From: Paludibacteraceae bacterium
GTDB lineage: Bacteria > Bacteroidota > Bacteroidia > Bacteroidales > Paludibacteraceae
NCBI GenBank assembly: GCA_024401475.1
Contig: JAKSKZ010000013.1
Coordinates: 6,284-70,283 of the forward strand
Direction of reading: 5' to 3'
DNA: 64,000 nucleotides
Shown here: in pieces, positions 21,521 through 51,442 of the stretch
Position numbering within the stretch: position 1 is the first letter of the stretch
How the letters are laid out: each line of letters begins with the position of its first letter
Made by a program: the position numbers and the translations under genes
Notes under the pieces: generated by a model
Databases searched by the model: none
What the model saw: the letters and a program-made list of their open reading frames with translations, nothing else
Told to the model about the DNA's origin: nothing

Positions 21521-21540
21521 ATGACATTTGTAAATGTCAT
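21521..21540. promoter_or_regulatory. perfect palindrome upstream of the HTH gene (candidate operator)
   Basis: atgacattt-gt-aaatgtcat has 9-bp perfect arms and lies 45 nt upstream of the HTH start codon. It shares the acatttgtaa core of the repeated motif further upstream. Confidence 0.45.
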
Positions 21541-21548
21541 ATCACATC

Positions 21549-22538: not shown

Positions 22539-23151
22539 ACCGTTTATCTTTGTTTTACCTAATTTAGTAATAACCAATGATATTTACAATACTACTCTCC
22601 TATTTATTTAGATTAATTGATATGTATCATCTTGTATTTTGTTATAGTTCCATGTCTAACCATCTCCTCTATTCTATTCATAATGGACAATTCATATCTA
22701 TTTCATTTGTCTAATCTATTATTAATCAATAGTTTGAATGATTGTTGAAAACTTAATCAGAGAATTCTTGTTCAATCAAATTATCTTTATTAAGAGAAAT
22801 ATCAATTTTTTACTTTCATACCACAAATGGTCATAATTGAACCATACAATCTTTATTTGTCGACGTTTAGATTTGTAAAGCACACCTTTTATGGCATTTT
22901 GCATATAATTCCAAATCAAATTAGTCAATGATCCCCCTCGATTAGGAACAAACTAAACATACATTCAATATTTTTTCTATAGCTCGATTTATCACTTCCT
23001 GGATTACCTATTTGCTTATCAACTACACGAATTTCACCATCCATTCGATTCTCATTGAGTTAAATCGGCTGTATTTTATATATATATTATTGTTATTTAG
23101 TTATTTATGTTCAAAAATTCTATGCTCTCCTATTCCAGTAATTTAGAATTT

Positions 23152-37951: not shown

Positions 37952-38130
37952 TGTGTGTGGTATGTTTGTTTCACTATAGTTATCGTATTTAGGGAAAATT
38001 GTAAATATGCTAATCGAATAGTTTCCAACTAAATACGAATCGGGAAATAGAAAAAACTCTTCGTCTTGTTATTTATATTTCAAAATTTTATATTAAATAT
38101 GCATAATATATAATCAACTTACGAAGAAGA

Positions 38131-38985: not shown

Positions 38986-39007
38986 ATTGATTTTATAAAA
39001 AAAAGTA

Positions 39008-39040
39008 AAAGGCCTTGGAATTGAGATTTCAAGGCCTTTC
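39008..39040. terminator. bidirectional terminator hairpin between the convergent FGE and LRR genes
   Basis: aaaggccttgga...ttcaaggccttt is flanked by A-rich sequence on one side and T-rich on the other. A diverged copy at 43783-43815 carries a compensatory double change (g12/c35 to t/a) that keeps the stem paired. Confidence 0.65.
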
Positions 39041-39069
39041 TTATTATAGATTAGAATGTTATGTCTATC

Positions 39070-40485
39070 CTATGCCCCATGTCCCTTATATATCATACAA
39101 AATATACCCAACAAGATTGCCAAAATTAGAGCAAGCCCTAAGAAAAAGAAAAGTATAGATTTGCCCCATGGAAAGAAGATGTGCAAGATGCAGATGATAA
39201 CAATCGGAATGACGATGTACAAAAGAAAGAGAAAACCTAATGTACGTAATCCGTCCCACGTATCACTGCTATAGGCTGTGCTTTCTACGATTACGTTCTC
39301 TCCAACCTTCAATTTGCTTAAATTCTTACAGTTATGGAAAGCATCTTCTCCAATGTAAGTTAGAGCGTTGGGAACATTGATTGAATGCAGTTGTTGGCAA
39401 TCATAAAAGGTGCAATTTTGTATCTGCTCCAGACTATCTGGCAATGTCACTTTCTTGAGGTTCGAACAGTCTGCGAAAGCATCATTCCCTATTGAAGTCA
39501 CAGCGTTTGGTATTGTAATTTCTTCTAAAGCAGAACATTGTGCAAACGTCTGGCTCCCTATGCTTTCAAGAGAAGAAGGGAACGTGATTTTTTTTAGTTG
39601 GCAACATCCTTCAAACGTATTAAACTCTATTGACTTTATTGAGTTTGGAAAATCAATTTCTGAAAGTTGTGAACACCGCCTGAAAGCATCATGTTCGATT
39701 TGATTTAAATTTCGAGGGAAACGGATGCTTTTTATGCCAGTATTTTCAAAGGCATGTCTTCCTATAGACTGAAGATTGTCTGGAAGATTAATTACTTCAA
39801 GTTTTTGGCAATTCTTAAACGCAAAATTGTCGATGTCAATAACGCTTTGAAGTATATCAATACTTTTCGGACAATAATCAACTGGACCTATCCATCCGTA
39901 GCATCTTGTACCATTTGCGTAGTACAACAAACCTCCTAGGTTGCTACAACCGTAGAATGCATTAAATCCAATAGAGGAAACATTATTCATATTGCCCAAG
40001 ATTTCCCTTATTCCCGTCTTTCTAAAGGCTTCATCCCCGATTACTTCCAAACTATCAGGAAATTCGATGCTACTTAGATTGATACAGTTTTCAAATGCAC
40101 TACTTTTTATTATACGGAGGGAATTGGGAAATTTAACAGACTTCAGGTTGTTGCAGTTGCGGAAAGAGGATTCCTCTATACATGTAACACCTTCGGGAAT
40201 TTGAATTTCCTCCAAGTTGTAAAAATAAGAAAATGTACGCTCTCCGATTGTTTGCAAGGAGGAGGGAAAAACTATTTTTTGTATGGAATCATTTAAAGAA
40301 TAGATGCCATTTAAAAATCCTATATCATCTTTGTTTATAACGGTGACACCATCATTGATTATCAATGTGTTATCTATTATAGTGATTTTTTTGTCCGATT
40401 CCATTTCTAATTTATTTTTAGAACTTATTGGGTTGGTGATAAGAAAAATAAGGAAGGTTAGAATTAGGCGTATTAATATTGTCAT
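39070..40485 (-). CDS. BspA-type leucine-rich repeat protein with C-terminal membrane anchor
   Basis: 471 aa. After the signal peptide come many repeats of the type F..C..L..I.IP..V..I...AF..C. The C terminus has two hydrophobic helices (FLFLLYIVIPIVIICILHIFF and ILFFFLGLALILAILLGIFCMI). Confidence 0.85.
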   Translation of the reverse strand: MTILIRLILTFLIFLITNPISSKNKLEMESDKKITIIDNTLIINDGVTVINKDDIGFLNGIYSLNDSIQKIVFPSSLQTIGERTFSYFYNLEEIQIPEGVTCIEESSFRNCNNLKSVKFPNSLRIIKSSAFENCINLSSIEFPDSLEVIGDEAFRKTGIREILGNMNNVSSIGFNAFYGCSNLGGLLYYANGTRCYGWIGPVDYCPKSIDILQSVIDIDNFAFKNCQKLEVINLPDNLQSIGRHAFENTGIKSIRFPRNLNQIEHDAFRRCSQLSEIDFPNSIKSIEFNTFEGCCQLKKITFPSSLESIGSQTFAQCSALEEITIPNAVTSIGNDAFADCSNLKKVTLPDSLEQIQNCTFYDCQQLHSINVPNALTYIGEDAFHNCKNLSKLKVGENVIVESTAYSSDTWDGLRTLGFLFLLYIVIPIVIICILHIFFPWGKSILFFFLGLALILAILLGIFCMIYKGHGA

Positions 40486-40520
40486 AAATTAAGAGTCAAT
40501 AATATACTACAAATATAAAA

Positions 40521-40553
40521 CAAAAAAGGCTGAATCACAAACCGGATCCAGCC
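40521..40553 (-). terminator. rho-independent terminator of the nucleoside hydrolase gene copy
   Basis: Stem ggctgaatc (40528-40536) pairs with gatccagcc (40545-40553) with one mismatch. A plus-strand A-run gives a T-run on the minus strand. The same structure recurs at about 50373-50405. Confidence 0.55.
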
Positions 40554-40576
40554 TAAATAATTTGTGATGTTGAAGG

Positions 40577-41413
40577 TTACTTCAAACTTTCCTTAATTGT
40601 GTTTACCAAGAAATCCTTTTCCATATCTGTGGCAACATGGATAAGTTTGCCATCTGCAGCCTCTTCAATGTGGCCGATATTGTTGGCAGTGAGTTTGTAA
40701 TCCTTGATGGAGAACTTGCTCTTATTGTAGTAGTAAAGCACTGGTAGGCAGTCGTGAATAACGCAGCCTGTCGCGTCTTTTGTGTATTTCACGTTAGATG
40801 CGTAGTTTTGAAGAAGGATGCTCTTCATTTCTGGGTATTTGCTAAAATCCATGCTGTCAATCTCTGTCTTGGCAATGCTTGCATATACCTCCGTAATGTC
40901 GAGAGGGAAAATGGTGATGTCGAGAGCCGAAGATAGAACGGTTTGAACAGCTGGACCATCACCTGCGAAGTTGTACTCTGTTTGACCCTCTTTGTTGAAG
41001 TGCGTGATACCACCTCCCATGATATAGACATTCTTGATGTGAGACACCGTTTCCGGATATTTTGTGATCAAATTAGCAAGAGTTGACAACGGACCCACTG
41101 CGATATATGTCACGCTATCCTTTTGGTTGATTTCTGACGCAAGATAAGCCAAATCCTTATTAGTTGCAATCATACTATCCGTCACTCCATATTTAATTGC
41201 CATAGAGTCTGCAATGCCAGCCAAACCGTCTGTTCCGTGGAAATCGCCACAAGTAACTTCATGCCCATCGGAAGGTTCTCCGATGCCTTGGCACAAAACA
41301 CTGTTCATGTTCAAATATTTCGCCATGATGTTCATGTTACGAGTCGTATATTTGAAAGGCATATTTCCGAATGTAGAAATCATATACTCAGGCTCTCCGA
41401 TAGTCTTTGCGAA
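40577..41413 (-). pseudogene. 5'-truncated copy of the inosine-uridine-preferring nucleoside hydrolase gene
   Basis: It encodes residues equivalent to about 60-337 of the intact paralog at 50429..51442. It lacks the lipoprotein signal and the catalytic DxDxxxDD motif. The track ORF only begins at a GTG in unrelated sequence at 41447-41449. Confidence 0.75.
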
Positions 41414-41977
41414 GAAAATATTACACACAGAGGCGCATACCCGTTTCACCTATCCGTTCTCTAAATTAGAGTTGAGGGTGAGGCGTTATAGCAAGGAGTT
41501 GTATGAGGAGTTGGAGAAATATGTGAAAAGTTGATACAACCAAAAAGCGCGGACATTAGCCCGCGCTTCTCTTTTCTATATCGGAACCGATTACTTCACG
41601 TTTCCAACCTTGATAAGGTACTCCGCGATTTGAACAGTAATCCGTCATTTTCAACCATCTTGCCAGAATAGTGCGTGATGGCTACCTTCGTGCCAAAAAC
41701 GTAAAAGTTATGGAAAGAAAAAGAAATATGCAGATGTTGACATTTGGGTATTTTTCTCGATTATTTGGTTCTGAAGTTTTGTTAGGCTATATTCTTAGAA
41801 GAGATAATTTGGCATTTGCTGAAATGTTCTTTTCTCAATAATACATATTTCTGCCGAAAATATGTTAAAGATTGCACAAAACAAGATAAAACTGATTGTT
41901 TTTTAAAGAAAAAATCGTATTCTTGCCGTCAAATGTCGGTTAAAAGGACATTGAAAGCCCCCAAAAAGCAGATTATA

Positions 41978-43591
41978 ATGAGCAGATTCAGATACCCGAT
42001 TGACAATGACCAGTTCCAGGAAATAAGGGAACAGGGACTATTGTATGTTGACAAGACTGACATGATGTATGATCTTGCCAACAGGTATAAGTACATTTTT
42101 CTGGCTCGTCCTCGACGTTTTGGCAAATCTCTGCTTTGCAACACCTTTAAGGCCTACTTTCAGGGACAGAAAGAGCTGTTCGAGGGGCTGAAGGTGATGA
42201 AGCTGGAGAAACAGTGGAAAAAGTTCCCTGTACTTCATTTTATTTTGAGTGGTCTGAAGGACTGTAGCCTTGATGACGCTAAAGGAAAATTGGAACTACT
42301 AATTTCTAAATACGAAAAAGATTTTGGTAGAAATGAAGCAGAGAAAACTCCTGGTGCTCGCTTTAGTGGCTTAATACATCGTGCATTTGAGCAGACTGGC
42401 GAAAAAGTAGTTGTTATTCTTGATGAATATGACTCGGCTATTATGCGACTGATGTACATGCCAGAACAACTTGATGAAATGCGTTCTTTGCTGCGTGAGT
42501 TCTATCAGGTGCTGAAGGATGAAGGCGAGTATCTCCGTTTCGTCTTCATCACTGGCGTTACCAAATTCTCACAGCTCAGCATCTTCTCAGAGTTGAATAA
42601 TCTGAATCAAATATCTTTTGATGATAAATACTCTGGATTATGCGGTATTACGCAAGAAGAATTAGATACAACTCTCCGTCCATGTATTGAGGAATATGCA
42701 GATGCCCTTAATGTTACTGTGGATGAAGCATATGCTTTGCTAAAGAAGAACTATGATGGTTATCATTTCTCGCCAAGAAGCAAGGATGTATATGCACCAT
42801 TCAGCCTATTGAAAGCTTTGGACAAACAAACAACCGATCCATATTGGTTCGATTCTGGAACCTCCAAGTCACTGATAGATCACTTACAGCACCAACCAGA
42901 GTTCAATCCACTGGATTTTGATGGAGCTGAGCTATCAATCAATGCTTTTAATGTGCCATGCGAGAAGGCTAGTACACCAATCCCTTTGCTTTACCAAAGT
43001 GGTTATCTTACAATCGCTTCATATGACAAGGAATTGGATTCATACACACTCCATTTTCCCAATTACGAAGTAAGGCGGGGTATGATAGAAAGCCTGACCA
43101 ATTATCTGATGGATGCTGACGATTTGGAACGAGATGCAGCAGTTCTGTTAATGGCACGAGCTTTTAAGAATAGCGATTTATCTACAGCACTGTTGGGGCT
43201 ACGTTCTTGGATTGCCAGCCTTCCCTACGACATTATCACCCAAAAGGAATGGATGGCGAAGAAGAAACGAGAGGCATTCTACAAGCTGCTTATCTATGTC
43301 ATCTTCTCCATGCTCAATAGCAAGGTCGATACCGAAGTCAAGAGCATCCTGGGTCGTGCCGATGTGGTGATCAAGACCAAGACAGACATCTTTGTGCTGG
43401 AACTGAAGGTAGACGACTCTGTCGAGAATGCCTTGGCACAGATTGACAGCAAGGGGTATGCTATCCCATACGAGGCTGACGATCGGAAAGTGACTAAGTG
43501 CGGAGTTTGTATCTCAAGCGAACAGCGCAACATCACCCACTGGCGAATTACCGATGCAGAAGGATGCATCTTAAACGAAATGAAATTCTAA
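41978..43591 (+). CDS. AAA-ATPase-like protein with C-terminal PD-(D/E)xK nuclease-like domain (PDDEXK_9 type)
   Basis: The start is refined to the ATG at 41978 (MSRFRYPIDNDQF). Motifs: ARPRRFGKSL, VVILDEYDS, and C-terminal GRADVVIKTKTDIFVLELKVD. It is a paralog of 5618..7189. Confidence 0.8.
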   Translation: MSRFRYPIDNDQFQEIREQGLLYVDKTDMMYDLANRYKYIFLARPRRFGKSLLCNTFKAYFQGQKELFEGLKVMKLEKQWKKFPVLHFILSGLKDCSLDDAKGKLELLISKYEKDFGRNEAEKTPGARFSGLIHRAFEQTGEKVVVILDEYDSAIMRLMYMPEQLDEMRSLLREFYQVLKDEGEYLRFVFITGVTKFSQLSIFSELNNLNQISFDDKYSGLCGITQEELDTTLRPCIEEYADALNVTVDEAYALLKKNYDGYHFSPRSKDVYAPFSLLKALDKQTTDPYWFDSGTSKSLIDHLQHQPEFNPLDFDGAELSINAFNVPCEKASTPIPLLYQSGYLTIASYDKELDSYTLHFPNYEVRRGMIESLTNYLMDADDLERDAAVLLMARAFKNSDLSTALLGLRSWIASLPYDIITQKEWMAKKKREAFYKLLIYVIFSMLNSKVDTEVKSILGRADVVIKTKTDIFVLELKVDDSVENALAQIDSKGYAIPYEADDRKVTKCGVCISSEQRNITHWRITDAEGCILNEMKF

Positions 43592-43775
43592 ATTATTGCT
43601 GTCCGGTACTTTCAATTTAGAAGTGCAAGAAAAAGAGTCGGATGAAGGATGCAGAGGCTAGTGTATTTTCAGAATATAAAGGAAATTACATACTTAATGT
43701 TCAACAAATCAGCAATTGTGGTATAACTCGTATTTTTCATTAATTTCAATTTGGCTCAAACATTATATAATAACA

Positions 43776-43846
43776 AAAATAAAAGTCCTTGGAATTGATA
43801 TTTCAAGGACTTTCTTGTTTATATATCAGAATGTTATGTCTATCCT
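43776..43846. repeat. diverged copy of the 39001..39071 terminator-plus-spacer segment
   Basis: aaaaataaaagtccttggaattgatatttcaaggactttcttgtttatatatcagaatgttatgtctatcct aligns with 39001-39071 with a few substitutions and one indel. Both copies end in gaatgttatgtctatcct. Confidence 0.75.
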
Positions 43847-44101
43847 GTAAGCGTCCAATCTGAAAAAATCAATCAAATTGGACGCTTACTAGAAGGTTGC
43901 AGCTACAAGAATTTCGCAATCAGAACGAAGAAATCATGTCTTTCATAAAGTCTTGTCAAGGAGTGTTCCTGTCGCCCAAGGTATTCTGGTGGTGGGCTGG
44001 CATCTCATACGCCACTTCGTTATATTCACTCTGGTGTATTTTGCAAATGGTTCTTCAGTGGTTGAAATACTAGACTGGTCTTGCCTGGAATAGATCAATA
44101 C

Positions 44102-44130
44102 AAAAATGTGCGACAATGTCGCACATTTTT
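44102..44130. terminator. bidirectional terminator-like palindrome downstream of the AlbA_2 gene
   Basis: aaaaatgtgcgaca-a-tgtcgcacattttt is a near-perfect palindrome flanked by an A-run and a T-run. It lies 43 nt after the stop at 44173. Confidence 0.55.
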
Positions 44131-44172
44131 ACAAGACACACTTTTCGATCGTCGCAAATCACGACGGTGATT

Positions 44173-45600
44173 TTATTCTTTATCAAGCACTTCCCAATGT
44201 CCACTATAACCACTACCTACATAACGGATATGTGGAATTTTAGCAAGGTGGCGCTTGATAGTCATTGAGGTAACCCCAAATTGTTTCGCCAATTCTTCTG
44301 TGGTAATATTAAGATTATCTTTAATAGCCTTCTCTATTTTTTCATCGAGAGTATCTTCTTGAGTAACACCTTGAGTAACACCTTGAGTAACATCTTGAGT
44401 AACATCTTGAGTACCACTCTTAGCAGGTCTCATAAATGTCACCACAACAAAGCCACCATTGACAGTCCATGTTGGTGCTGCTACACCTCTCTTTTGGCAA
44501 GCCTCCATGATGCGTTTTACACCAGAGCCCCAGTTCTCAATATAGGTTGTGCTATATAGTACATTGGCTATAAGTGGATTGTACGGATATGAGATATGTG
44601 GCTGGAAGATATTCTCTGGTGTAATCTGTGGAGGTAGTATGCCAGGATTCTCAATTTCGATGCGGTCATCGTAGATGGCAATGCCTATGGTCAGGTTATA
44701 ACGTTCGTACTGACGATGGCAAAGGGCATTCAATACCACTTCACGCAGAGCTTCGGCAGGTACTTCCAGATATTCATCACGAACCAGCCCGACTATCTTT
44801 CCATGCATATTCAGGTGCTTGCGGAAGAAATTCATAGCCTCATTAAGCAGTACGAAGATATTTCCCTCCACTCGCTGGTTGTCGATAAACTCATTCTTAT
44901 CTGTCCCTTGGAACCGAGCCAAACGCATAGTGAATTGCGTGTACATGCCTGTTTCTTTTGTAAAGAGTGCGGTGGCAGCGTTTAGAGGTTTGTTATCTGT
45001 CGTCAACTTCCATTTTCCTAACACATCCTCAATGGGTTCTGTTAGAGCCAAATCTGACAACCGACCTCTTTCAACACCAAGACGAACAACACCACGTATC
45101 AGTTTCTCGTCCAATGAACTGATATCTGTAAACTCCGATAGTTGTCTTTCCCATGCGAACATGTCTGGCTTACTTCTACGTAACCGCTCTTCATACATGT
45201 CGCGTGGCATCTCCTTCGTTGTACTCTCCACCTTATAGTAAGGACAACCATGATAAGTATAAGGCACCATGCCCCATGCCCATCCATCAAAGTGCATGGC
45301 AATTACTTTGTTGTCTGGGCAATCAGGAACATCGATATACTCAACCCGGACATCAACCTGTGGCTCCATGTAACTCAGAGCCTGGGCAATCTCCCGTTGG
45401 GTATTGTCAGTAACCTGCTGGCCCTGAATCTTCAATGATTTGGGAGCGACACCGAAGATGAGCCACCCACCTTCTGTGTTCAAGAAGGCACAAGCAGAAT
45501 GCATGCCATCCTTCAGTTCACCCGTGGTCTTTTTCAACTCCAACTGACGATGCTCGTCAGCTTGTATCAGTTCCTTCAGTTCTTCTATTGTAAGTGCCAT
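44173..45600 (-). CDS. AlbA_2 (Schlafen-like) / HATPase_c_4 / wHTH protein (often annotated RecG-like ATP-binding or putative DNA-binding protein)
   Basis: 475 aa. The N-terminal AlbA_2-type segment reads EHRQLELKKTTGELKDGMHSACAFLNTEGGWLIFGV. The central region (ALREVVLNALCHRQYERYN...IEIENPG) is like the RecG C-terminal ATPase-like domain. The C terminus is an HTH (ITTEELAKQFGVTSMTIKRHL). A TQ(D/G)V tetrapeptide repeat linker is also present. Confidence 0.8.
   Translation of the reverse strand: MALTIEELKELIQADEHRQLELKKTTGELKDGMHSACAFLNTEGGWLIFGVAPKSLKIQGQQVTDNTQREIAQALSYMEPQVDVRVEYIDVPDCPDNKVIAMHFDGWAWGMVPYTYHGCPYYKVESTTKEMPRDMYEERLRRSKPDMFAWERQLSEFTDISSLDEKLIRGVVRLGVERGRLSDLALTEPIEDVLGKWKLTTDNKPLNAATALFTKETGMYTQFTMRLARFQGTDKNEFIDNQRVEGNIFVLLNEAMNFFRKHLNMHGKIVGLVRDEYLEVPAEALREVVLNALCHRQYERYNLTIGIAIYDDRIEIENPGILPPQITPENIFQPHISYPYNPLIANVLYSTTYIENWGSGVKRIMEACQKRGVAAPTWTVNGGFVVVTFMRPAKSGTQDVTQDVTQGVTQGVTQEDTLDEKIEKAIKDNLNITTEELAKQFGVTSMTIKRHLAKIPHIRYVGSGYSGHWEVLDKE
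44358..44415. repeat. 12-bp tandem repeat (about 4.8 copies) inside the AlbA_2 gene
   Basis: cttgagtaacac x2, cttgagtaacat x2 and a partial cttgagtacc, encoding GTQDVTQDVTQGVTQGVTQ on the minus strand. The repeat is in frame. Confidence 0.85.
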
Positions 45601-45632
45601 ATATTTATAACGTTCTGTTCTGTTTTATATTG

Positions 45633-45965
45633 TCACATATTTATGTACTTCACAGGATTTTGGCTTTTGCCATAGAAGGTTGTTACGTCTTTTCCAATGT
45701 ATGTTGTATGTTCGTCTTCAACTCCCAGGAACTCACACCTTCCAATGTGTTTAGGGCCTTCGGTGTATTTCCAATCTACAGGATTATAGACTTATTCCAC
45801 AATTCCATTAACAATAGCAAGAACGTGCGTAGCCTTTCTTGCACGGTTTATATCAACCTTCCAATACTTACGGGTCATCTCATAGAGATTCTCCCTTTTT
45901 ACTTTCCCTACTTTTACACAGATAATGCAGTCTTCGGGATTAGGTCTCAATTCATTTGTCACCAT
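45633..45965 (-). pseudogene. 110-codon reading frame interrupted by one in-frame TAA (or a 57-aa small protein)
   Basis: From the ATG at 45963-45965 it reads MVTNELRPNPEDCIICVKVGKVKRENLYEMTRKYWKVDINRARKATHVLAIVNGIVE, then TAA at 45792-45794. The same frame continues VYNPVDWKYTEGPKHIGRCEFLGVEDEHTTYIGKDVTTFYGKSQNPVKYINM to a TGA at 45633-45635. Both halves are below the 60-aa cutoff of the ORF track. Confidence 0.45.
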
Positions 45966-46000
45966 ATTCGGATATTATTAATTGACATTTTTGTATAGCG

Positions 46001-49000
46001 CTATTTGTTAGGATCATACTCTGTTCCACAATTCGGACAAACACGATGCCCATCACTTCGCATCTGCATAGAATTTCCACACTTATAGCAAAAATACTCA
46101 TGCTTCTCCCAATGTCCTAAATCGTGTTCTACAAACGTTCTGAGTCTGTCTGAAAGAAACCCTCCAGTCATATGTAGATGGCTTATTCGCAGTCTAAAGT
46201 TTTCTGTTGAACAACAAGCTCCGCATTCGGGACAAATATACTGTCCATTTGGACATTGCTTTGAGTCGCGGCTATCTATAGTCGCATTACACTTTTGCTT
46301 ATTGAAACAGTGGTTGAGATATACGATAAATCCCTTCTTTTTACAATTGTCATTGGTGCAGGAAAATTCCGTAACAGCCCTTGACGTGAAATTTGTTATA
46401 TCTGAAGGCTTCATCAGTTTACCGCATTCACGACATTTTAGATGCTCGTAAAACTTGGCAAAACTCTTCAAATAGGATGAAAGAATGATGTAATGGCCGA
46501 ATTTTGTTCGTTTCCCATTTTTATTTATGTAGTCGGGGGATATTCCCAAAATACGCATAAAATCAAGAATAGTGTAATACTCCCATTCATCATCAGTACG
46601 ATACCTTACAGGCGGACGGAAGCAAGGCTTGTTGCCGCACCAATAAAAAGCAAGATCATGATAATTGCCCACTTTATCTGAAAGACGACATTCGCAGAAT
46701 TCTTCCTGATCTTCTCCTTTGGTTTCAAATCCGACAAAATTGTTCAGACCTTTATATTTAAAATTGAACGGTCTTGCTATTGCAAAAAGTTCTGCCTCGT
46801 AAGCTTCGTCAAAATAAAAGGAAACTCCATTTTGTTCATTTACAATTTGGTATTCATTCTCCTTGTATGTTATTTGTATCTGCTGGATGGCACGGGCATA
46901 ATACTTATTATTATAATCTTTTATATTGCCATATTCATCAATCATCTTCTGAGGGATGAAAACTCTTAGTCTGCCATCTTGTATCTTACTGATTATGCCA
47001 TTGAAATAGCTGTTACGTTTCCAATTGCTTCTATCGTCAGGGAGTTCATTTACCACCCATCTGCCAGAACATTGAGTAACAATACTTCTAATGCCAATCC
47101 ACTCGTCCGTATCTTCTCTACCTTCAAGCAACTGAAGCATAACATTGTTATCCAGAGTCTTTGATTGGTCCTTCTCACGCAATTTCAAATATGTAAAAGC
47201 AATTTCCAGAGGGAAGCATATCGGCCTCTCTCCATTGGAAATGAGATTATAAAAGGATTCTGCCGTGTGATGGATTTTTCCCTCACTCATAGACTTAAAA
47301 AGTTTCTTGACGATCTTTATCTGTAGGTACGGTGGCAGGATTGCAAAGACTTCTTTCAAAGAAGCCGTCGATGTTGTGGTCTTAGAAAGAACTGCCCACC
47401 ATATCACGGCAAGTCTTTGATTAATATTATTTGTTTTCTTGAAGTTCTGTATTTGGCTCGTAAAACTTGTTTCCCAATTTCGCAGTGTATAGAAATCACT
47501 ATCGCCACCTGGCATGTTGGCTGTCATAAGTTCGGTCAAGAGAACAGCAAGTGCAACATTTTCGTCGGTCATTTCCATTGATTGTAATCTCTGCGCAATC
47601 AGCGGGAATAAATTAACCTCTGTCGTTTCCAGAACCTTTGCATGTGTTCTGTTTTTGAGCGAAGGTTTATCATACCATCGCTCCTTTTCTGCATACACTC
47701 CATTAAGGGAAATTGCGTTGATGATAATCTCTACAATATTCTCTGGCAACGACGTGACAACATCATGTTCAAATAGAATCAGAAGGTCTTCTACCGACCT
47801 GCTGTTGATGTAGTCATCCCATACTGAAGAGCACTGGCCATCTGGAATCAACTTCTTCAAATCTTTGAGAAAAGTACAATTCTCCCGTTCAGGATAGCGA
47901 GAATAATACTTTTTTTCTCTCTCTTCCAATGGCTTACCGTCAAAGAAATGGCTAAGTGGGGTTGTTTCTACCACCTCTTTTGCCCTCGCAATGACAATAT
48001 TAGCAAATTCGATGCTATGATCAAACAATTCAGAAGCGTCTTTGACAAATTTCTTTATGTCCGCATACCCCCATTGTGAAACAATTTGCTCCGACAAGGC
48101 TAATGTTTCATCTATTGTAAGCCATGAATGAAAACCAGTTGATACCTCAGAAAGCACACCTATGGACTGTGTTTCTCTCAATATGGGGATAAGTCCTTGT
48201 TTAATTTCCACTTTCTCTGCTTTTTCATAGATTGAGCTATAATGCTCGTATGCTGAGAAGAAGTCGGACTTTATTCTGTAGGGAGAATTTAGGTTGGTGC
48301 GCAACAACTCTTTTAGTTTATCCTTTATCAATGGAAGCAATTTCTGCCTGAAAGGATTTAGAAAATCTTCACCCATAACCGAAAGTTGCCCGATATCGCC
48401 AATCACTTGCCAATACTTCTTCTCCTCGATAGCTTTATCAAGGATTTGTGAGATTGACAATGCCAATTCTTCTCTAAAGGACTGGAAATCTTCTACGGAC
48501 AGGTTGTTGAGATAGGTGAAGAAATCGTTTCTTCTGTAGTCATTATGCTGTTTCCCAACAAATGCCGTCAATTCTTTCTTGAAACGATTTGTCTTCACCA
48601 AAGTCAAACACTTAGCTTTTTCCTCTTCATACTGCTTGGAGGTCAAGCGGAGGTACGACCACAGTTTGCTTACAGCATTCTGCTTATCGCGGTCAACATA
48701 CATCCCCGTCCTCCTTCTGTGTTCACTCGAAGCTTTTAGGTCATCTTCAAATATATCCGAACGTGTGGACAATTCTTCAAACACCTCGTTAATTTTGCCA
48801 TCCACCATTGTCTCGATGCATTGTTTGGCATACTTCACACATTCGTTGGGGATATACTCAAATGATTTCTCAACATCTTGCCAATCAGAGAGTGTACTGT
48901 TGGCATTGAGTTTCTGTTCCAGCCATTTCTGTACAAGGTCTGCATCGTCGAAATATCTAACAATGGTTGGATATATTATCAATACAGCCAGCCGTTCTTC

Positions 49001-49546
49001 ATCAGTAAAGATAGAGAGAAGTGACTGCCAGATGGACTTATCTTCTGTTGAGAACTGTCGGTCAAAGATATATCGATCTTTGGAGTATTCGTTCTGTTTG
49101 TAATGGTCTACAAAGAACTTAAAGTGTTCAGACGTTTTTTCTGGGGTACGCTCTGCATCCTCCTCAATTATACGTTTCACCTTATCTGCAACCATACCTA
49201 AAGGTTTGAAGGTATGCGTATAGAGATTCATTTTTCGATTGTCTTTATACTCAATATACTCATGGTCTCCGTAATAAGACAATGCTAGCTGTGCATCCTC
49301 ATCTGACTTGGTAATGCGTCTGACATTCACTGCTCGTTTCTTGCCGTTGTCCTGCTTGTCCACCTGAAAAACAACAATCTGCCCTTCTTTCTTTGCTTCA
49401 TCCTCAATGAAACTCGCAGAACAAACATAAAAGTCTTGGTTGTATTTAGGTGACGGCATATTACAATTGTTAGACGCAATGAAGCCGAAGTCCTTGTTTG
49501 TGTCTAAGAACTTCACCGCACCTATAAAGTATTTGTCTGTAAACAT
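46001..49546 (-). CDS. large uncharacterised protein: N-terminal cold-shock-like OB domain, long helical middle, C-terminal cluster of zinc ribbons
   Basis: The 1181-aa ORF is the longest in the window. The N terminus GAVKFLDTNKDFGFIASN...IVVFQVDKQDNGKKRAVNV resembles the CspA-type GxVKWFNxxKGFGFI fold. About 900 aa follow without Walker or nuclease motifs. The last roughly 250 aa hold at least four Cys clusters, including CRECGK...CTNDNC, CPNGQYICPECGACC and CYKCGNSMQMRSDGHRVCPNCG. Confidence 0.8.
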   Translation of the reverse strand: MFTDKYFIGAVKFLDTNKDFGFIASNNCNMPSPKYNQDFYVCSASFIEDEAKKEGQIVVFQVDKQDNGKKRAVNVRRITKSDEDAQLALSYYGDHEYIEYKDNRKMNLYTHTFKPLGMVADKVKRIIEEDAERTPEKTSEHFKFFVDHYKQNEYSKDRYIFDRQFSTEDKSIWQSLLSIFTDEERLAVLIIYPTIVRYFDDADLVQKWLEQKLNANSTLSDWQDVEKSFEYIPNECVKYAKQCIETMVDGKINEVFEELSTRSDIFEDDLKASSEHRRRTGMYVDRDKQNAVSKLWSYLRLTSKQYEEEKAKCLTLVKTNRFKKELTAFVGKQHNDYRRNDFFTYLNNLSVEDFQSFREELALSISQILDKAIEEKKYWQVIGDIGQLSVMGEDFLNPFRQKLLPLIKDKLKELLRTNLNSPYRIKSDFFSAYEHYSSIYEKAEKVEIKQGLIPILRETQSIGVLSEVSTGFHSWLTIDETLALSEQIVSQWGYADIKKFVKDASELFDHSIEFANIVIARAKEVVETTPLSHFFDGKPLEEREKKYYSRYPERENCTFLKDLKKLIPDGQCSSVWDDYINSRSVEDLLILFEHDVVTSLPENIVEIIINAISLNGVYAEKERWYDKPSLKNRTHAKVLETTEVNLFPLIAQRLQSMEMTDENVALAVLLTELMTANMPGGDSDFYTLRNWETSFTSQIQNFKKTNNINQRLAVIWWAVLSKTTTSTASLKEVFAILPPYLQIKIVKKLFKSMSEGKIHHTAESFYNLISNGERPICFPLEIAFTYLKLREKDQSKTLDNNVMLQLLEGREDTDEWIGIRSIVTQCSGRWVVNELPDDRSNWKRNSYFNGIISKIQDGRLRVFIPQKMIDEYGNIKDYNNKYYARAIQQIQITYKENEYQIVNEQNGVSFYFDEAYEAELFAIARPFNFKYKGLNNFVGFETKGEDQEEFCECRLSDKVGNYHDLAFYWCGNKPCFRPPVRYRTDDEWEYYTILDFMRILGISPDYINKNGKRTKFGHYIILSSYLKSFAKFYEHLKCRECGKLMKPSDITNFTSRAVTEFSCTNDNCKKKGFIVYLNHCFNKQKCNATIDSRDSKQCPNGQYICPECGACCSTENFRLRISHLHMTGGFLSDRLRTFVEHDLGHWEKHEYFCYKCGNSMQMRSDGHRVCPNCGTEYDPNK

Positions 49547-49568
49547 CTATTTTATTAATTTCATATTA

Positions 49569-49576
49569 CAAATATA
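49569..49576 (-). promoter_or_regulatory. candidate -7 promoter box (TAnnTTTG) for the 1181-aa gene
   Basis: Plus-strand caaatata is tatatttg on the minus strand. It lies 23 nt upstream of the ATG at 49546 and downstream of the hairpin terminator at 49592-49620. Confidence 0.4.
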
Positions 49577-49591
49577 GCCTAAAAACGCTAT

Positions 49592-49620
49592 AAAACAATA
49601 AAATCAGCCCGAAGGCTGAT
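49592..49620 (-). terminator. hairpin terminator between the IS66 remnant and the 1181-aa gene
   Basis: Stem atcagcc (49603-49609), loop cgaa, stem ggctgat (49614-49620). On the minus strand it is followed by tttattgtttta. Confidence 0.5.
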
Positions 49621-49631
49621 TCTAAACCATT

Positions 49632-49823
49632 CTAAATCTCATTGATTCTGTCTGGCAGTTTGACCTTGTCACGCTTCTTCGACATGGTTATGAACACGTC
49701 GCCGTTGTAGGGGTCACGACCGAGCATCTCCCGTATGGTGTTGCAGAGGCGGAAGTGTCCGAGGCGCATGTCGGTGATGCCCTCCACGTAAAAGTACCTG
49801 TAGTCCGGATTGAGGTTCAGCAT
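49632..49823 (-). pseudogene. truncated IS66 Orf2 (TnpB accessory protein)
   Basis: YFYVEGITDMRLGHFRLCNTIREMLGRDPYNGDVFITMSKKRDKVKL fits the IS66 Orf2 consensus (..TDMRKGFDGL....DP.SG.LF.F.N.RRD..K.L). The expected WD..GF..KRLE continuation is replaced by PDRINEI-stop. Confidence 0.7.
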
Positions 49824-50134
49824 AGCACGGCGATTTTTTCAACCAGGCTTTTCAGTTCGTTCAGGCTGATGGACTCGTGCCTTAGATTCAAACCGTTCGG
49901 TAGTACAAGGTCTGCCTTGACTGAAATTTCAGTTTGTGCTGGTATTGTTGTTTGTTCCTGCTCGACGACTTCAACTGGAACCAGTTTGGGTTTTGTCTGC
50001 ACCGTAAGCCATTCGACATATTCCGCTATCGGAACACCCGACTGTTTGCAGATTTTGGAGATGGTCACTCCATCCTTGCCTTTGTTTGCCTCATACATGT
50101 CACGTATCTGGCACATTTTCTTTTCGCTTGCCAT
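49817..50134 (-). CDS. IS66-family orf1-like HTH accessory protein
   Basis: The plausible start is the ATG at 50132-50134 (MASEKKMCQIRDMYEANKGKDGVTISKICKQSGVPIAEYVEWL). The track's upstream extension runs into the LRR remnant and is not credible. Confidence 0.5.
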   Translation of the reverse strand: MASEKKMCQIRDMYEANKGKDGVTISKICKQSGVPIAEYVEWLTVQTKPKLVPVEVVEQEQTTIPAQTEISVKADLVLPNGLNLRHESISLNELKSLVEKIAVLC

Positions 50135-50231
50135 ATTTTCTAAATTTTTGTGTTCGCGACAAAGATAAGGGCAAAGGCAAGTTTTGTATTGGATGCTTAC
50201 GTCTATCCTATGCGCAAAAAGATTGACGGTC

Positions 50232-50355
50232 TTATGCCCCTTGTCCCTTATATACAAGGCAAAATACACCCAACAAGATTGCCAAAATTAGTGCAATCCC
50301 TAAGACAAAGAAAAGTATAGATTTGCCCCATGGAAAGAGAATGTGTAAGATGCAT
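50232..50355 (-). pseudogene. remnant of the 3' end of a BspA-type LRR gene paralog
   Basis: The minus-strand reading ...ILFPWGKSILFFVLGIALILAILLGVFCLVYKGQGA-stop parallels the C terminus of 39070..40485 (FFPWGKSILFFFLGLALILAILLGIFCMIYKGHGA). Nothing of the LRR body remains. Confidence 0.7.
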
Positions 50356-50368
50356 ATATACACAAACA

Positions 50369-51265
50369 TAAACAAAAAAGGCTGAATTTCAAACTAAATC
50401 CAGCCTAAATGATCTGTGATGTTGAAGGTTACTTCAAACTTTCCTTAATTGTGTTCACCAAGAAATCCTTTTCCATCTCTGTAGCGACATGGATGAGTTT
50501 ACCCTCAGCCGCCTCTTCAATGTGACCGATGTTGTTGGCCGTGAGTTTGTAATCCTTGATGGAGAACTTGCTCTTATTGTAGTAGTAAAGCACTGGTAGG
50601 CAGTCGTGAATAACGCAGCCTGTCGCGTCTTTTGTGTATTTCACGTTAGATGCGTAGTTTTGAAGAAGGATGCTCTTCATTTCTGGGTATTTGCTAAAAT
50701 CCATGCTGTCAATCTCTGTCTTGGCAATGCTTGCATATACCTCCGTAATGTCGAGAGGGAAAATGGTGATGTCGAGAGCCGAAGATAGAACGGTTTGAAC
50801 AGCTGGACCATCACCTGCGAAGTTGTACTCTGTTTGACCCTCTTTGTTGAAGTGCGTGATACCACCTCCCATGATATAGACATTCTTGATGTGAGACACC
50901 GTTTCCGGATATTTTGTGATCAAATTAGCAAGAGTTGACAACGGACCCACTGCGATATATGTCACGCTATCCTTTTGGTTGATTTCTGACGCAAGATAAG
51001 CCAAATCCTTATTAGTTGCAATCATACTATCCGTCACTCCATATTTAATTGCCATAGAGTCTGCAATGCCAGCCAAACCGTCTGTTCCGTGGAAATCGCC
51101 ACAAGTAACTTCATGCCCATCGGAAGGTTCTCCGATGCCTTGGCACAAAACACTGTTCATGTTCAAATATTTCGCCATGATGTTCATGTTACGAGTCGTA
51201 TATTTGAAAGGCATATTTCCGAATGTAGAAATCATATACTCAGGCTCTCCGATAGTCTTTGCGAA
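50369..51265. repeat. right copy of the 897-bp direct duplication (partner 40517..41413)
   Basis: See the left copy. The antisense track ORFs at 50606..50788 and 50677..50883 are identical in sequence to 40754..40936 and 40825..41031. Confidence 0.85.
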
Positions 51266-51442
51266 CATCAAGATGGCACAAGCGTCATCTGTTCCTGGAT
51301 CACAATCAAAAACGGTAGCAGTTGCTTTTTGAACCGTTTCTGGCTTAACAACATTATTAGATTGTTCAGAATTTCCTTTAGAGCCACAAGAAGAGAGGGC
51401 TACACAAAGGGATGATAGAATGACAAATGCTTTTTTTCTCAT
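50429..51442 (-). CDS. inosine-uridine-preferring nucleoside hydrolase family lipoprotein (intact copy)
   Basis: 337 aa. It has a lipoprotein signal (MRKKAFVILSSLCVALSSC) and the N-terminal aspartate cluster VFDCDPGTDDACAI (DxDxxxDD). Confidence 0.88.
   Translation of the reverse strand: MRKKAFVILSSLCVALSSCGSKGNSEQSNNVVKPETVQKATATVFDCDPGTDDACAILMFAKTIGEPEYMISTFGNMPFKYTTRNMNIMAKYLNMNSVLCQGIGEPSDGHEVTCGDFHGTDGLAGIADSMAIKYGVTDSMIATNKDLAYLASEINQKDSVTYIAVGPLSTLANLITKYPETVSHIKNVYIMGGGITHFNKEGQTEYNFAGDGPAVQTVLSSALDITIFPLDITEVYASIAKTEIDSMDFSKYPEMKSILLQNYASNVKYTKDATGCVIHDCLPVLYYYNKSKFSIKDYKLTANNIGHIEEAAEGKLIHVATEMEKDFLVNTIKESLK

What the first reader, a model, noticed from the sequence alone, without database searches (positions are those of the whole stretch)
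41414..50368. About 9-kb mosaic insert bracketed by a direct duplication of the nucleoside-hydrolase locus
The 897-bp segment 40517-41413 is repeated at 50369-51265, an exact offset of 9852. It holds the NH terminator and most of the nucleoside hydrolase gene. The left copy of the gene is cut at 41413/41414 and has lost its signal peptide and catalytic DxDxxxDD motif. The right copy is intact.

Between the copies, in order, lie:
- short gene debris;
- a PDDEXK_9-type AAA ATPase;
- an AlbA_2/Schlafen-like ATPase;
- a small ORF broken by an in-frame stop;
- a 1181-aa unknown protein;
- a truncated IS66 remnant;
- the last roughly 40 codons of a second BspA-type LRR gene.

A direct duplication of target-homologous DNA flanking foreign cargo is what a single-crossover (Campbell-type) integration would leave. 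Illegitimate or homologous recombination between paralogous loci could give the same result. No integrase or intact transposase is present. The cargo genes are of the kind usually found in defence or accessory islands.
Basis: partly seen in the sequence, partly recalled or inferred. Interest (0 to 1): 0.62.

Follow-up and report, generated by a model that had tools for sequence, protein, structure and literature searches.

The report
Old gene duplication plus IS66-derived transposon
The 9-kb "insert" is two unrelated layers in a variable spot of a rumen/gut Paludibacteraceae genome: an old duplication of the nucleoside-hydrolase/LRR locus around a DUF1703 ATPase-nuclease gene, and a recent 6.35-kb IS66-type transposon without a transposase that carries defence-island genes. 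This is ordinary genome plasticity, not one integration event.

Summary
The duplication is real. Segment 40502-41413 matches 50356-51265 (912 bp, 97.6%). Of this, 725 bp are identical and the 3' ~190 bp are only about 89% identical. The left nucleoside hydrolase (NH) copy lacks its first 58 codons. The repeat sits at about 2x depth in five independent gut metagenomes, and the 41413/41414 junction is present at 1x in all of them.

The interval is not one insert.

Layer 1 (41414-43846) holds the 3' stub of an unknown gene, an intact DUF1703 gene (AAA-ATPase_like + PDDEXK_9) and a second LRR-type terminator. It is found in every strain sampled, including one about 5% diverged.

Layer 2 (43847-50200, 6,354 bp) is bounded by IS66-family inverted repeats (GTAAGCGTCCAAT / GTAAGCATCCAAT) and a 9-bp direct repeat (GTCTATCCT).
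- It keeps a tnpA-like ORF and half of tnpB, and has no tnpC.
- It carries a Schlafen/AlbA_2 ATPase, a broken PD-T4-3-like ORF and a 1181-aa protein of unknown function.
- It is absent from four other metagenomes of the same species, and one of them holds the exact empty-site sequence.

Removing layer 2 rejoins the LRR tail to its terminator.

No integrase, replication gene or compositional difference supports a Campbell-type integration. The two copies co-vary between strains, which points to gene conversion. Interest is moderate to low.

The parts
38995..39071 (.). T1: hairpin terminator shared by the FGE-sulfatase-like gene (+) and LRR-A (-). It is homologous to T2.
   Evidence: 88% identical to 43770-43846. 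Sequence read.
39070..40485 (-). LRR-A, an intact BspA-type leucine-rich-repeat surface protein (471 aa)
   Evidence: Pfam LRR_5, 2.3e-93.
40502..41413 (.). Left copy of the duplicated block. It holds the NH terminator and 279 of the 337 NH codons.
   Evidence: Segment 40689-41413 is identical to 50541-51265.
40577..41413 (-). NH', a 5'-truncated nucleoside hydrolase pseudogene. It lacks the signal peptide and the DxDxxxDD motif.
   Evidence: Pfam IU_nuc_hydro model positions 30-261 only. Translation.
41414..41573 (+). Stub of about 40 C-terminal codons of an unknown + strand gene (ends at 41534), followed by a GC-rich hairpin (about 41546-41573). Junction J1 lies at 41413/41414.
   Evidence: ORF and sequence read. 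No homologue in any fetched locus. J1 is spanned by contigs in X2 and X9 and by L035.
41978..43591 (+). Intact DUF1703-type gene (AAA-ATPase_like + PDDEXK_9 nuclease), 537 aa from the ATG at 41978
   Evidence: Pfam 2.4e-60 and 9.4e-17, both domains full length. It belongs to a highly multi-copy family in these metagenomes (depth 150-360x against 2-70x).
43608..43661 (.). Short multi-copy repeat downstream of the DUF1703 gene
   Evidence: Found inside unrelated 4-26 kb contigs in X2, X3, X4 and X15.
43770..43846 (.). T2: terminator belonging to the LRR-B remnant, separated from it by the transposon
   Evidence: The reconstructed empty site aligns contiguously with 38995-39195.
43838..43846 (.). 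Left copy of the target-site duplication, GTCTATCCT
43847..50200 (.). 6,354-bp IS66-family-ended element without a transposase (composite, or a transporter IS with its core deleted)
   Evidence: Inverted repeats, target-site duplication and internal content. Absent in X3, X4 and X15 and absent or rare in X2. Exact empty-site contig in X3.
43847..43889 (.). 43-bp IR-17 bp-IR palindrome (GTAAGCGTCCAAT...ATTGGACGCTTAC). This mini IS66 remnant forms the left end.
   Evidence: It is its own unitig at 211x (3x genome depth) in X1, with at least 3 different right flanks.
44173..45600 (-). Schlafen/AlbA_2 + HATPase_c_4 + wHTH ATP-binding protein (475 aa)
   Evidence: Pfam. PHROG 12156, 8e-59, full length. 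PADLOC hits only to pAgo-associated domain models.
45636..45962 (-). PD-T4-3-like 109-aa gene inactivated by one in-frame stop
   Evidence: 91% identical to the intact L012 gene, with a stop at codon 57. PADLOC PD-T4-3, 6e-7.
46001..49546 (-). 1181-aa protein with an N-terminal cold-shock-like OB fold, an alpha-solenoid and a Cys-rich beta/zinc-ribbon C-terminal domain. Its function is unknown.
49569..49655 (.). Multi-copy module made of the last 8 codons and terminator of an abundant unrelated gene. It also provides the promoter region of the 1181-aa gene. It is joined to tnpB' at 49655/49656.
   Evidence: Depth 500-5900x. Alternative continuation TGTCAGTTTTTCGTAG in X1, X2, X3, X4, X11, X15 and X19.
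49656..49823 (-). 5' 56 codons of IS66 tnpB. The rest of tnpB and all of tnpC are missing.
   Evidence: Pfam TnpB_IS66, model positions 2-49 of 101, 1.5e-9. NCBIfam IS66_TnpB, 5e-8.
49817..50134 (-). tnpA-like ORF (105 aa). It is assigned by position only and overlaps the tnpB start (ATGCTGA).
   Evidence: No Pfam or NCBIfam hit.
50188..50200 (-). Right terminal inverted repeat (reverse complement GTAAGCATCCAAT)
   Evidence: A unitig covering 50171-50330 runs across the end at 72x (1x) in X1.
50201..50209 (.). Right copy of the target-site duplication, GTCTATCCT
50234..50357 (-). LRR-B remnant, the last ~41 codons (TM anchor) of a second BspA-type LRR gene. The gene body (equivalent to 39196-40501) is deleted.
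   Evidence: 89% identical to 39068-39195. Translation.
50356..51265 (.). Right copy of the duplicated block
50429..51442 (-). Intact lipoprotein nucleoside hydrolase (337 aa). It is syntenic with PNPOx and the P-type ATPase, as in relatives.

Best explanation
The interval is the sum of at least two unrelated events at a synteny-breakpoint hot spot of a Paludibacteraceae chromosome.

(1) An old segmental duplication.
- The unit [terminator - BspA-type LRR gene - 3' 837 bp of NH] exists twice, separated by a gene stub and a DUF1703 ATPase-nuclease gene.
- The left NH copy ends at an illegitimate junction (41413/41414).
- The right LRR copy later lost its body.
- The two NH copies keep recombining, so gene conversion holds 725 bp identical while the 3' ends differ.
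- This layer is present in all sampled strains. It is inferred to be chromosomal rearrangement, not integration of an element.

(2) A recent transposition.
- A 6,354-bp derivative of an IS66-family element inserted about 25 bp downstream of the stop codon of the LRR-B remnant, between that stop and its terminator.
- The insertion duplicated 8-9 bp of target.
- The element keeps both 13-bp termini, a tnpA-like ORF and the first half of tnpB. A 5.8-kb cargo replaces the rest of tnpB and all of tnpC.
- Its left end is a 43-bp IR-IR mini-element.
- It therefore has to be moved in trans by a full-length IS66 transposase. Such copies are abundant in the same metagenomes.
- The cargo comes from defence islands: a Schlafen/AlbA_2 ATPase, a dead PD-T4-3-like gene and a 1181-aa CSD-solenoid-zinc-ribbon protein.

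Shown: the repeats, the inverted repeats, the direct repeat, the domain content, presence and absence across samples, and an empty-site sequence.
Inferred: the order of events, mobilisation in trans, gene conversion, and a defence role for the cargo.
For: Duplication:
- Sequence evidence.
- The repeat unitig sits at about 2x depth: X1 149 vs 70-73, X2 23.9 vs 11-12, X4 43.6 vs 21-25, X3 24.3 vs 15-17.5, X15 87.7 vs 47-62.
- J1 unitigs sit at 1x in the same runs, in X9, and in L035, a contig only 95.4% identical overall.

Gene conversion and recombination:
- In X2 a single 725-bp unitig at 2x depth differs from the window at 7 sites, so both copies changed together.
- L035's truncated copy carries the right-copy allele at 11 of the 12 sites that distinguish the two copies in the NH 3' end.
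- That 3' end differs at 10 synonymous and 2 conservative sites (pS 0.44, pN 0.022). It diverged under purifying selection and not by pseudogene decay.

Hot spot:
- The 84% PBP1A relative continues with SbcCD.
- The 86% NH relatives continue with MBL-fold and M13 peptidase genes.

Transposon:
- There are only three copies of GTAAGCRTCCAA in 64 kb, all at the element's ends.
- The termini match at 12 of 13 positions, and a 9-bp direct repeat lies exactly outside them.
- The termini share GTAAGCGTCC with ISPsk01, and IS66 elements with passenger genes are known (PMC12888890).
- An 8-bp direct repeat was reported for an IS66-family member (PMC12898284).
- tnpB is truncated.
- Depth is about 0 over 44815-49503 in X3, X4 and X15, although their flanks are present.
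- An X3 contig reads T2 + one GTCTATCCT + the LRR tail.
- Deleting the element restores contiguity with 38995-39195.
- X19 and X20 hold the hairpin-plus-cargo junction at 24-28x but none of the NH or LRR flank. The X19 contig has 350 nt of different left flank.
- A full-length IS66 relative sits at 156x in X1 and about 600x in X20.

Cargo origin:
- Segment 45599-49539 is 97% identical to L012.
- Homologues of the 1181-aa gene lie beside type I R-M/AAA_15, helicase-WYL/AAA_21/RloB/RES/AEP-TOTE, and BREX/relaxase/Rep3 genes.
Against: - No pre-duplication allele (single NH next to a full LRR gene, without the DUF1703 segment) was found. The mechanism and direction of layer 1 therefore remain inferred.
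- The internal junction between cargo and tnpB' (49655/49656) could not be confirmed independently. In X1 a 1,445-bp contig runs through 49656 into a full-length IS66 without a branch and differs from the window at 5 sites. No indexed run holds the junction words. Logan contigs drop minor branches, so this is absence of evidence only.
- The X3 empty-site contig diverges from the window to the left of 43760. It could in principle come from a paralogous LRR 3' flank. Against that, its depth (10.7x) plus the alternative allele (4.7x) adds up to the strain depth.
- The only right-end contig seen in X19 does not repeat the bases that flank the X19 left end. A second complete insertion with its own target duplication is therefore not demonstrated.
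- The direct repeat is 9 bp, not the canonical 8.
Confidence: 0.72

Rival explanations
1. Campbell-type integration, applied to the inner part. In this model a circular DNA of about 3.5 kb carries [gene stub - DUF1703 - T2 - LRR tail - 5'-truncated NH]. It recombines once with the chromosomal NH gene and so duplicates the homologous segment. The IS66 element arrives later.
For: - The topology fits: direct repeats of target-homologous DNA flank non-homologous DNA, and one copy is truncated exactly at the repeat end.
- The 3' end of NH, the LRR tail and the terminator of one copy look like an allele from another lineage that evolved as a functional gene (pS 0.44, pN/pS 0.05).
Against: - There is no replication, mobilisation, integrase or phage gene.
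- Composition equals the backbone.
- No empty site exists in any of six samples or in L035.
- A diverged donor predicts divergence along the whole repeat, but 725 bp are identical. That needs an extra gene-conversion step.
- L035 shows the truncated copy with the other 3'-end type, so the 3'-end difference is not tied to the origin of the junction.
Confidence: 0.12
2. Ancient tandem paralogues followed by deletions. In this model two complete [T-LRR-NH] units once flanked gene Z and the DUF1703 gene. A deletion from NH codon 58 into gene Z made J1, and another deletion removed the body of LRR-B. Gene conversion explains the identical block. This is a specific version of layer 1 of the best explanation.
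For: - The stub at 41414-41534 reads like the C-terminus of a truncated + strand gene followed by a terminator.
- The 3'-end divergence bears the signature of purifying selection.
- The copies evolve in concert in X2.
Against: - The related species L001 and L002 show a single NH gene within the DNA fetched around it.
- A synonymous divergence of 0.44 next to 0% requires a very sharp and stable boundary to the conversion tract.
Confidence: 0.3
3. The cargo was not transposed with the IS. In this model a complete IS66 inserted here and made the target duplication. Its interior was later replaced in situ by recombination with a defence-island segment, so the 6.35-kb unit never moved as a whole.
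For: - X1 unitigs suggest the IS66 next to the LRR tail may continue into a full-length tnpB-tnpC.
- The cargo is a patchwork of modules with their own boundaries at 49539, 45599 and 43890.
Against: - The left end (mini-IS hairpin joined to the cargo) occurs with other flanks, and without this locus, in X19 and X20.
- No sample shows IS66 alone at this target. Samples have either everything or nothing.
Confidence: 0.15
4. Assembly artefact. In this model the duplication or the insert is a mis-join of repeats in a metagenome-assembled genome.
For: - The window's IS66 part (49656-49824) differs at 5 sites from the only X1 contig covering it.
- The 49655/49656 junction is unconfirmed.
Against: - The repeat sits at 2x depth and its junctions at 1x in five runs from at least three studies.
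- L035 spans J1 independently.
- The IR-to-flank unitig at 50171-50330 sits at 1x in X1.
- There is no shared k-mer at 49655/49656 that could mislead an assembler, only a 6-nt CAGTTT microhomology.
Confidence: 0.04

Closest known systems
IS66-family insertion sequences with passenger genes (tIS66, e.g. ISPa75-fosZ; PMC12888890)
   Same: - The termini start with GTAAGCGTCC (ISPsk01: GTAAGCGTCCGG...).
- The element duplicates about 8 bp of target.
- The tnpA-tnpB order at one end is the same.
- Non-transposition genes sit between the ends.
   Different: - The described tIS66 elements keep tnpA, tnpB and the DDE transposase and add one passenger gene downstream.
- Here tnpC and half of tnpB are gone.
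- The cargo is 5.8 kb.
- The other end is a 43-bp IR-IR mini-element.
- The element is therefore non-autonomous and closer to a composite or MITE-bounded transposon.
MITEs and composite transposons mobilised in trans
   Same: - The terminal inverted repeats match those of an autonomous IS present in the same community.
- There is no transposase.
- A target-site duplication is present.
- Presence or absence varies between strains.
   Different: - At 6.35 kb it is much larger than a MITE.
- Its two ends are unequal remnants (43 bp and 545 bp), not two full IS copies.
Campbell-type (single-crossover) integration of circular DNA
   Same: - Direct repeats of target-homologous DNA bracket the intervening DNA.
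- One gene copy is truncated.
   Different: - There are no element functions, no empty site and no compositional signal.
- Identity between the repeats is mosaic.
- Most of the intervening DNA has another, demonstrable origin.
DUF1703 (AAA-ATPase_like + PDDEXK_9) gene-family expansions (Cardinium cCpun, PMC6387759)
   Same: - The two-domain architecture is the same.
- The family is multi-copy and its members recombine.
- These metagenomes hold many near-identical fragments of it.
   Different: - Here only a single copy sits between the repeats.
- No evidence was obtained that the gene itself is mobile.
Defence islands on mobile elements (type I R-M, BREX, Gabija/PARIS-like AAA_21, RloB)
   Same: Homologues of the 1181-aa gene, and a Schlafen/AlbA_2 ATPase, lie in such islands.
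   Different: - No cargo gene matches a complete known defence system in PADLOC.
- The only recognisable defence gene, the PD-T4-3-like one, is broken.

Membership tests
IS66-family transposable element | Terminal inverted repeats beginning 5'-GTAAGCG | tested here: met
   GTAAGCGTCCAAT at 43847 and GTAAGCATCCAAT (reverse complement) at 50200 match at 12 of 13 positions. There are no other copies in the window apart from the inner arm of the hairpin. They share GTAAGCGTCC with ISPsk01.
IS66-family transposable element | Direct target duplication of about 8 bp immediately outside the inverted repeats | tested here: met
   GTCTATCCT lies on both sides. It is 9 bp long, and the extra base may be chance. 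The same sequence is uninterrupted in the paralogous left locus at 39062-39070.
IS66-family transposable element | tnpA, tnpB and the DDE transposase tnpC | tested here: not met
   Only a tnpA-like ORF (no family hit) and TnpB model positions 2-49 of 101 are present, and there is no tnpC. It is a defective derivative, not an autonomous IS66.
IS66-family transposable element | Empty-site allele, or presence/absence between strains | tested here: met
   X3, X4 and X15 lack 44815-49503, and X2 is near zero there. An X3 contig holds T2, a single GTCTATCCT and the LRR tail. Caveat: that contig differs from the window to the left of 43760.
IS66-family transposable element | The same unit at another site with its own target duplication | tested here: inconclusive
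   X19 and X20 hold the left end plus cargo with foreign flanks. The right end could not be linked and no matching duplication was seen.
Campbell-type integrated element | Direct repeats of the homologous target flanking the element | tested here: met
Campbell-type integrated element | Replication, mobilisation or integration functions, or foreign composition, between the repeats | tested here: not met
   Pfam, NCBIfam, PADLOC and PHROGs find none. Tetranucleotide distance lies within the backbone range.
Campbell-type integrated element | An allele without the whole insert in relatives | tested here: not met
   J1 sits at 1x in X1-X4, X9 and X15 and is present in L035. The closest other species break synteny at this point.
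Segmental duplication under gene conversion | Two copies per genome | tested here: met
   The repeat unitig sits at 1.5-2.1x flank depth in five runs.
Segmental duplication under gene conversion | The copies co-vary between strains | tested here: met
   The X2 unitig at 2x depth has 7 differences from the window, so both copies changed together. L035's left copy carries right-type 3' alleles. Unitigs cannot phase the copies directly.
DUF1703 family | N-terminal AAA-ATPase_like (PF09820) and C-terminal PDDEXK_9 (PF08011) | tested here: met
   Both domains are full length.
Known anti-phage defence system (PADLOC) | A match of the cargo proteins to a complete described system | tested here: not met
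   The Schlafen/AlbA_2 protein hits only pAgo-associated domain models. The 1181-aa protein has only a weak CSD hit. The PD-T4-3-like ORF is partial and broken.

The most novel reading that the evidence does not exclude
The 1181-aa protein may be the founding example of a large uncharacterised family of single-gene anti-phage or anti-plasmid defence proteins.
- Its architecture is a cold-shock/OB fold, an alpha-solenoid and a Cys-rich C-terminal domain with no structural match in the PDB.
- The family has 807 clusters at 50% identity. Distant members also begin with a CSD or S1 domain.
- The members sampled lie in defence islands.
- Here the gene is spread between genomes on an IS66 derivative that has lost its transposase.
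Probability: 0.3. Interest if true: 0.6.

Novelty: new member of a known kind. Interest (0 to 1): 0.36.

Why it matters
- For annotation, the region should be split into a fixed segmental duplication and a polymorphic transposon. This avoids inferring a non-existent integrative element.
- It is a clean natural example of an IS66-family element turned into a cargo carrier without a transposase, with a 43-bp mini-IS as one end. IS66 transposition is poorly understood, and such derivatives show which end sequences suffice.
- The cargo points to a widespread unannotated protein family that sits in defence islands and could be tested directly.
- None of this is unexpected for Bacteroidales genomes.

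Tried and rejected
- Exact-sequence look-ups of the window's NH, LRR and Schlafen proteins found nothing on record. The tnpA look-up gave only a 318-bp contig.
- The genome-contig scan with NH found two related species (86% aa) whose synteny stops at NH, so it gave no empty site.
- The metagenome-contig scan gave one 1.8-kb locus.
- NH homologue search: the species is rare, and only a truncated-copy contig was useful.
- The PBP1A anchor shows relatives continuing with SbcCD.
- No plasmid match to the IS66 end.
- No IMG/VR match to the 1181-aa family or to the 43-bp hairpin.
- No Rfam family in 38-52 kb.
- PDB sequence search gives only weak CSD hits.
- Foldseek of the full model gives only generic HEAT-like solenoids (TM 0.15 or less). 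The C-terminal domain alone has no hit at E <= 1e-3.
- An attempt to show a second insertion with its own target duplication in X19 failed, because the flanks do not match.
- An attempt to confirm junction 49655/49656 in public runs failed.
- A compositional test for foreign origin was negative.
- An outgroup comparison of the two NH 3' ends was uninformative (81-82% to both).

Full report
**Observation**

A self-comparison of the window confirms the repeat: 40502-41413 matches 50356-51265 (912 bp, 97.6%). The offset of 9852 holds without gaps from 40518.

The copies are mosaic. All 19 mismatches fall in 40536-40688, and 40689-41413 (725 bp) is identical to 50541-51265.

Two further homologies tie the loci together:
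- The LRR C-terminal tail (39068-39195 and 50230-50357, 89%).
- The terminator behind it (38995-39071 and 43770-43846, 88%).

The right nucleoside hydrolase (NH) copy is complete, with a lipoprotein signal and the DCDPGTDD motif. The left copy starts at model position 30 and lacks both.

**Organism and context**

NH relatives at 86% amino-acid identity are rumen Paludibacteraceae MAGs. The block to the right (PNPOx, P-type ATPase, PrsW, kinase, PP2C) is syntenic in them. Downstream of NH they carry MBL-fold and M13-peptidase genes that are absent from the window.

On the left, an 84% PBP1A relative continues with SbcCD, not with the FGE-sulfatase, LRR and NH genes.

The interval 37952-50429 is therefore a synteny breakpoint. 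Its base and tetranucleotide composition does not differ from the backbone.

**Independent sequence data**

Logan contigs of public gut and rumen metagenomes were laid on the region.
- Five runs from at least three studies (X1, X2, X3, X4, X15) hold the flanks at 1x.
- The same runs hold the repeated block at 1.5-2.1x.
- They hold the 41413/41414 junction region at 1x.
- Contigs cross the junction in X2 and X9.
- Logan contig L035, from another study and only 95.4% identical, runs from the NH' stop through the junction into the DUF1703 gene.

The duplication and its left junction are therefore real. They predate the strain divergence sampled here and were present in every strain seen. No allele without them was found.

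**A nested transposon**

Runs X3, X4 and X15 lack 44815-49503, and depth there is near zero in X2. An X3 contig joins 43837 to 50201, skipping 6,363 bp, with 9 bp shared.

Reading the ends shows the structure ...GTCTATCCT | GTAAGCGTCCAAT ... ATTGGATGCTTAC | GTCTATCCT....
- The 13-bp termini are inverted repeats that match at 12 of 13 positions.
- They begin with the IS66-family signature. ISPsk01 has GTAAGCGTCCGG (PMC12888890).
- They are the only such motifs in the window.
- The 9-bp direct repeat is what an insertion with an ~8-bp stagger leaves. An 8-bp repeat was reported for an IS66-family member (PMC12898284).

Deleting 43847-50209 produces a sequence collinear with the left locus, terminator directly followed by LRR tail. 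The same GTCTATCCT is uninterrupted there. The 'second LRR tail' is thus the other half of the insertion target.

**Anatomy of the element (43847-50200, 6,354 bp)**

- The right 545 bp are IS66: a tnpA-like ORF, then tnpB overlapping it. tnpB stops being IS66 after codon 56 (Pfam TnpB_IS66 positions 2-49 of 101). There is no tnpC.
- At 49655/49656 tnpB' is fused, across a 6-nt CAGTTT microhomology, to the last codons and terminator of an unrelated and very abundant gene (depth 500-5900x).
- Next come the 1181-aa gene and a PD-T4-3-like 109-aa gene with one in-frame stop. Together these are 97% identical to contig L012.
- Next comes a Schlafen/AlbA_2-HATPase_c_4-HTH gene.
- The left end is a 43-bp palindrome made of two termini 17 bp apart.

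In X1 this 43-bp unit is a separate unitig at 3x genome depth with at least three right flanks. It behaves like a tiny MITE.

Full-length relatives of the IS66 part are abundant in the same samples. They could supply the transposase in trans.

X19 and X20 hold the hairpin-cargo junction at 24-28x but none of this locus. The X19 contig has 350 nt of different left flank. The unit, or at least its left end with cargo, therefore exists elsewhere.

**Caveats on the element**

- The cargo/tnpB' junction was not found in any public run. In X1 the only contig over 49656-49824 continues into a full-length IS66 and differs from the window at five sites.
- Logan contigs drop minor branches, so this is not evidence of absence. 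The truncation is nevertheless documented only by the window.
- The X3 empty-site contig departs from the window to the left of 43760.
- X2, X4 and part of X3 carry a third, unidentified sequence to the left of 50218. The spot downstream of the LRR tail is hypervariable.
- No matching target duplication could be shown for X19.

**The older layer**

Without the transposon, the DNA between the repeats is:
- a ~40-codon 3' stub of a + strand gene with a hairpin;
- an intact DUF1703 gene (AAA-ATPase_like + PDDEXK_9);
- a short multi-copy repeat;
- terminator T2.

DUF1703 genes form recombining multi-copy families (PMC6387759). They are hugely multi-copy in these metagenomes. Nothing in this layer resembles a plasmid, phage or ICE function.

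The two NH 3' ends differ at 10 synonymous and 2 conservative sites (pS 0.44, pN 0.022). This means long separate evolution as functional genes, not decay after truncation.

The adjacent 725 bp are nevertheless identical. In X2 both copies share seven differences from the window. In L035 the truncated copy carries the right-copy alleles at 11 of the 12 distinguishing 3' sites.

The copies therefore exchange sequence, by gene conversion or by allelic import. The present 3'-end difference is not linked to the origin of the junction.

A simple Campbell event with a diverged donor would give divergence along the whole repeat. With an identical donor it would give none. Either way a second recombination step is needed, and the model gains nothing over a chromosomal duplication followed by deletions.

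I rank them as follows:
- Chromosomal segmental duplication or paralogous units with later deletions and conversion is most likely.
- Campbell integration is possible but unsupported (about 0.12).
- Assembly artefact is unlikely.

**The cargo**

The 1181-aa protein has 74 near-full-length relatives at 39-96% identity with no Pfam annotation. A profile search finds 807 clusters at 50% identity. Many share only the last ~230-470 residues. Distant members also begin with a CSD or S1 domain and have a HARP-like motif.

The AlphaFold2 model is confident (pLDDT 85.6). It shows an N-terminal OB fold, a long alpha-solenoid and a beta-rich C-terminal domain with about 20 invariant Cys/His residues. Foldseek finds only generic solenoids for the whole protein and nothing significant for the C-terminal domain.

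In three of the five gene neighbourhoods fetched, homologues lie in defence islands:
- type I R-M with AAA_15/21 next to NikA/HTH_17;
- helicase-WYL, AAA_21, RloB, RES and AEP-TOTE;
- BREX next to a relaxase and Rep3.

In the other two (L012, L018/L019) the neighbours are housekeeping or LRR genes.

A Schlafen/AlbA_2 ATPase follows the gene in one other lineage, with a DNA_pol3_alpha-fragment gene between them. That ATPase is only 25% identical to the one here. The 1181-aa family is absent from IMG/VR. The Schlafen protein matches a phage family annotated as helicase.

A defence role is a reasonable but untested inference.

**Verdict**

The single-insert, Campbell-type reading is only partly right.

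The region combines an old duplication that is homogenised by recombination with a recent IS66-derived cargo transposon lacking a transposase, both at a hypervariable site. This is a new member of known kinds of element and is of moderate to low interest. The uncharacterised 1181-aa family is the most promising lead.

Noticed in passing
window 43847-43889: A 43-bp palindrome made of two IS66 termini 17 bp apart. In run X1 it is a separate unitig at about 3x genome depth with at least 3 different flanks, so it behaves like a very small MITE. It has no exact copy in IMG/VR.
   Followed up: partly
window 46001-49546, and loci L012-L019, L025-L033: The 1181-aa protein belongs to a large unannotated family. 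There are 807 clusters at 50% identity with a conserved Cys-rich C-terminal module. Distant members also start with a CSD or S1 domain and carry a HARP-like motif. Three of the five neighbourhoods fetched are defence islands. The confident AF2 model has no PDB analogue for the C-terminal domain.
   Followed up: partly
window 49569-49655: An 87-bp segment at 500-5900x depth in several metagenomes. It holds the last 8 codons ('..PDRINEI*') and terminator of an abundant unidentified gene, and here it supplies the upstream region of the 1181-aa gene.
   Followed up: no
window 43608-43661: A 40-54-bp multi-copy repeat downstream of the DUF1703 gene. It also sits inside unrelated 4-26 kb contigs in X2, X3, X4 and X15. 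It may be a REP-like element.
   Followed up: no
left of window 50218, in runs X2, X4 and part of X3: A third allele. A 1.4-1.5 kb contig of unknown content ('...GGGAATATTCGACCTATAGGTC') replaces 43662-50217 next to the LRR-B tail, at full strain depth in X2 and X4.
   Followed up: partly
L035 (SRR28408167), equivalent to window 40563-42028: In a strain 95.4% identical over this stretch, the truncated NH copy carries the alleles of the window's right copy at 11 of the 12 copy-distinguishing 3' sites. The sequence upstream of the DUF1703 gene (41886-42010) is strongly diverged.
   Followed up: partly
L013/L014 13570-14871: A 433-aa protein made only of the DNA_pol3_alpha NTPase and finger domains. 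It sits between the 1185-aa homologue and a Schlafen/AlbA_2 ATPase in a type I R-M island. This is an odd stand-alone polymerase fragment in a defence context.
   Followed up: no
window 37972-38025: Run X3 shows a dense cluster of about 12 substitutions and a 1-bp deletion in the PBP1A 3' end and intergenic region. The surrounding kilobases are nearly identical, so this looks like a recombination tract.
   Followed up: no
window 21001-23000: GC drops to 0.26-0.32 against a window mean of about 0.40. Not examined.
   Followed up: no
X19 left flank of the element: The foreign flank in X19 ends ...TTTTTTTTGCATATATCCT directly before the IR. It shares TATCCT with the window's target and, like it, lies just after a terminator-like hairpin and T-run. 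This may reflect a target preference of this IS66 lineage.
   Followed up: no
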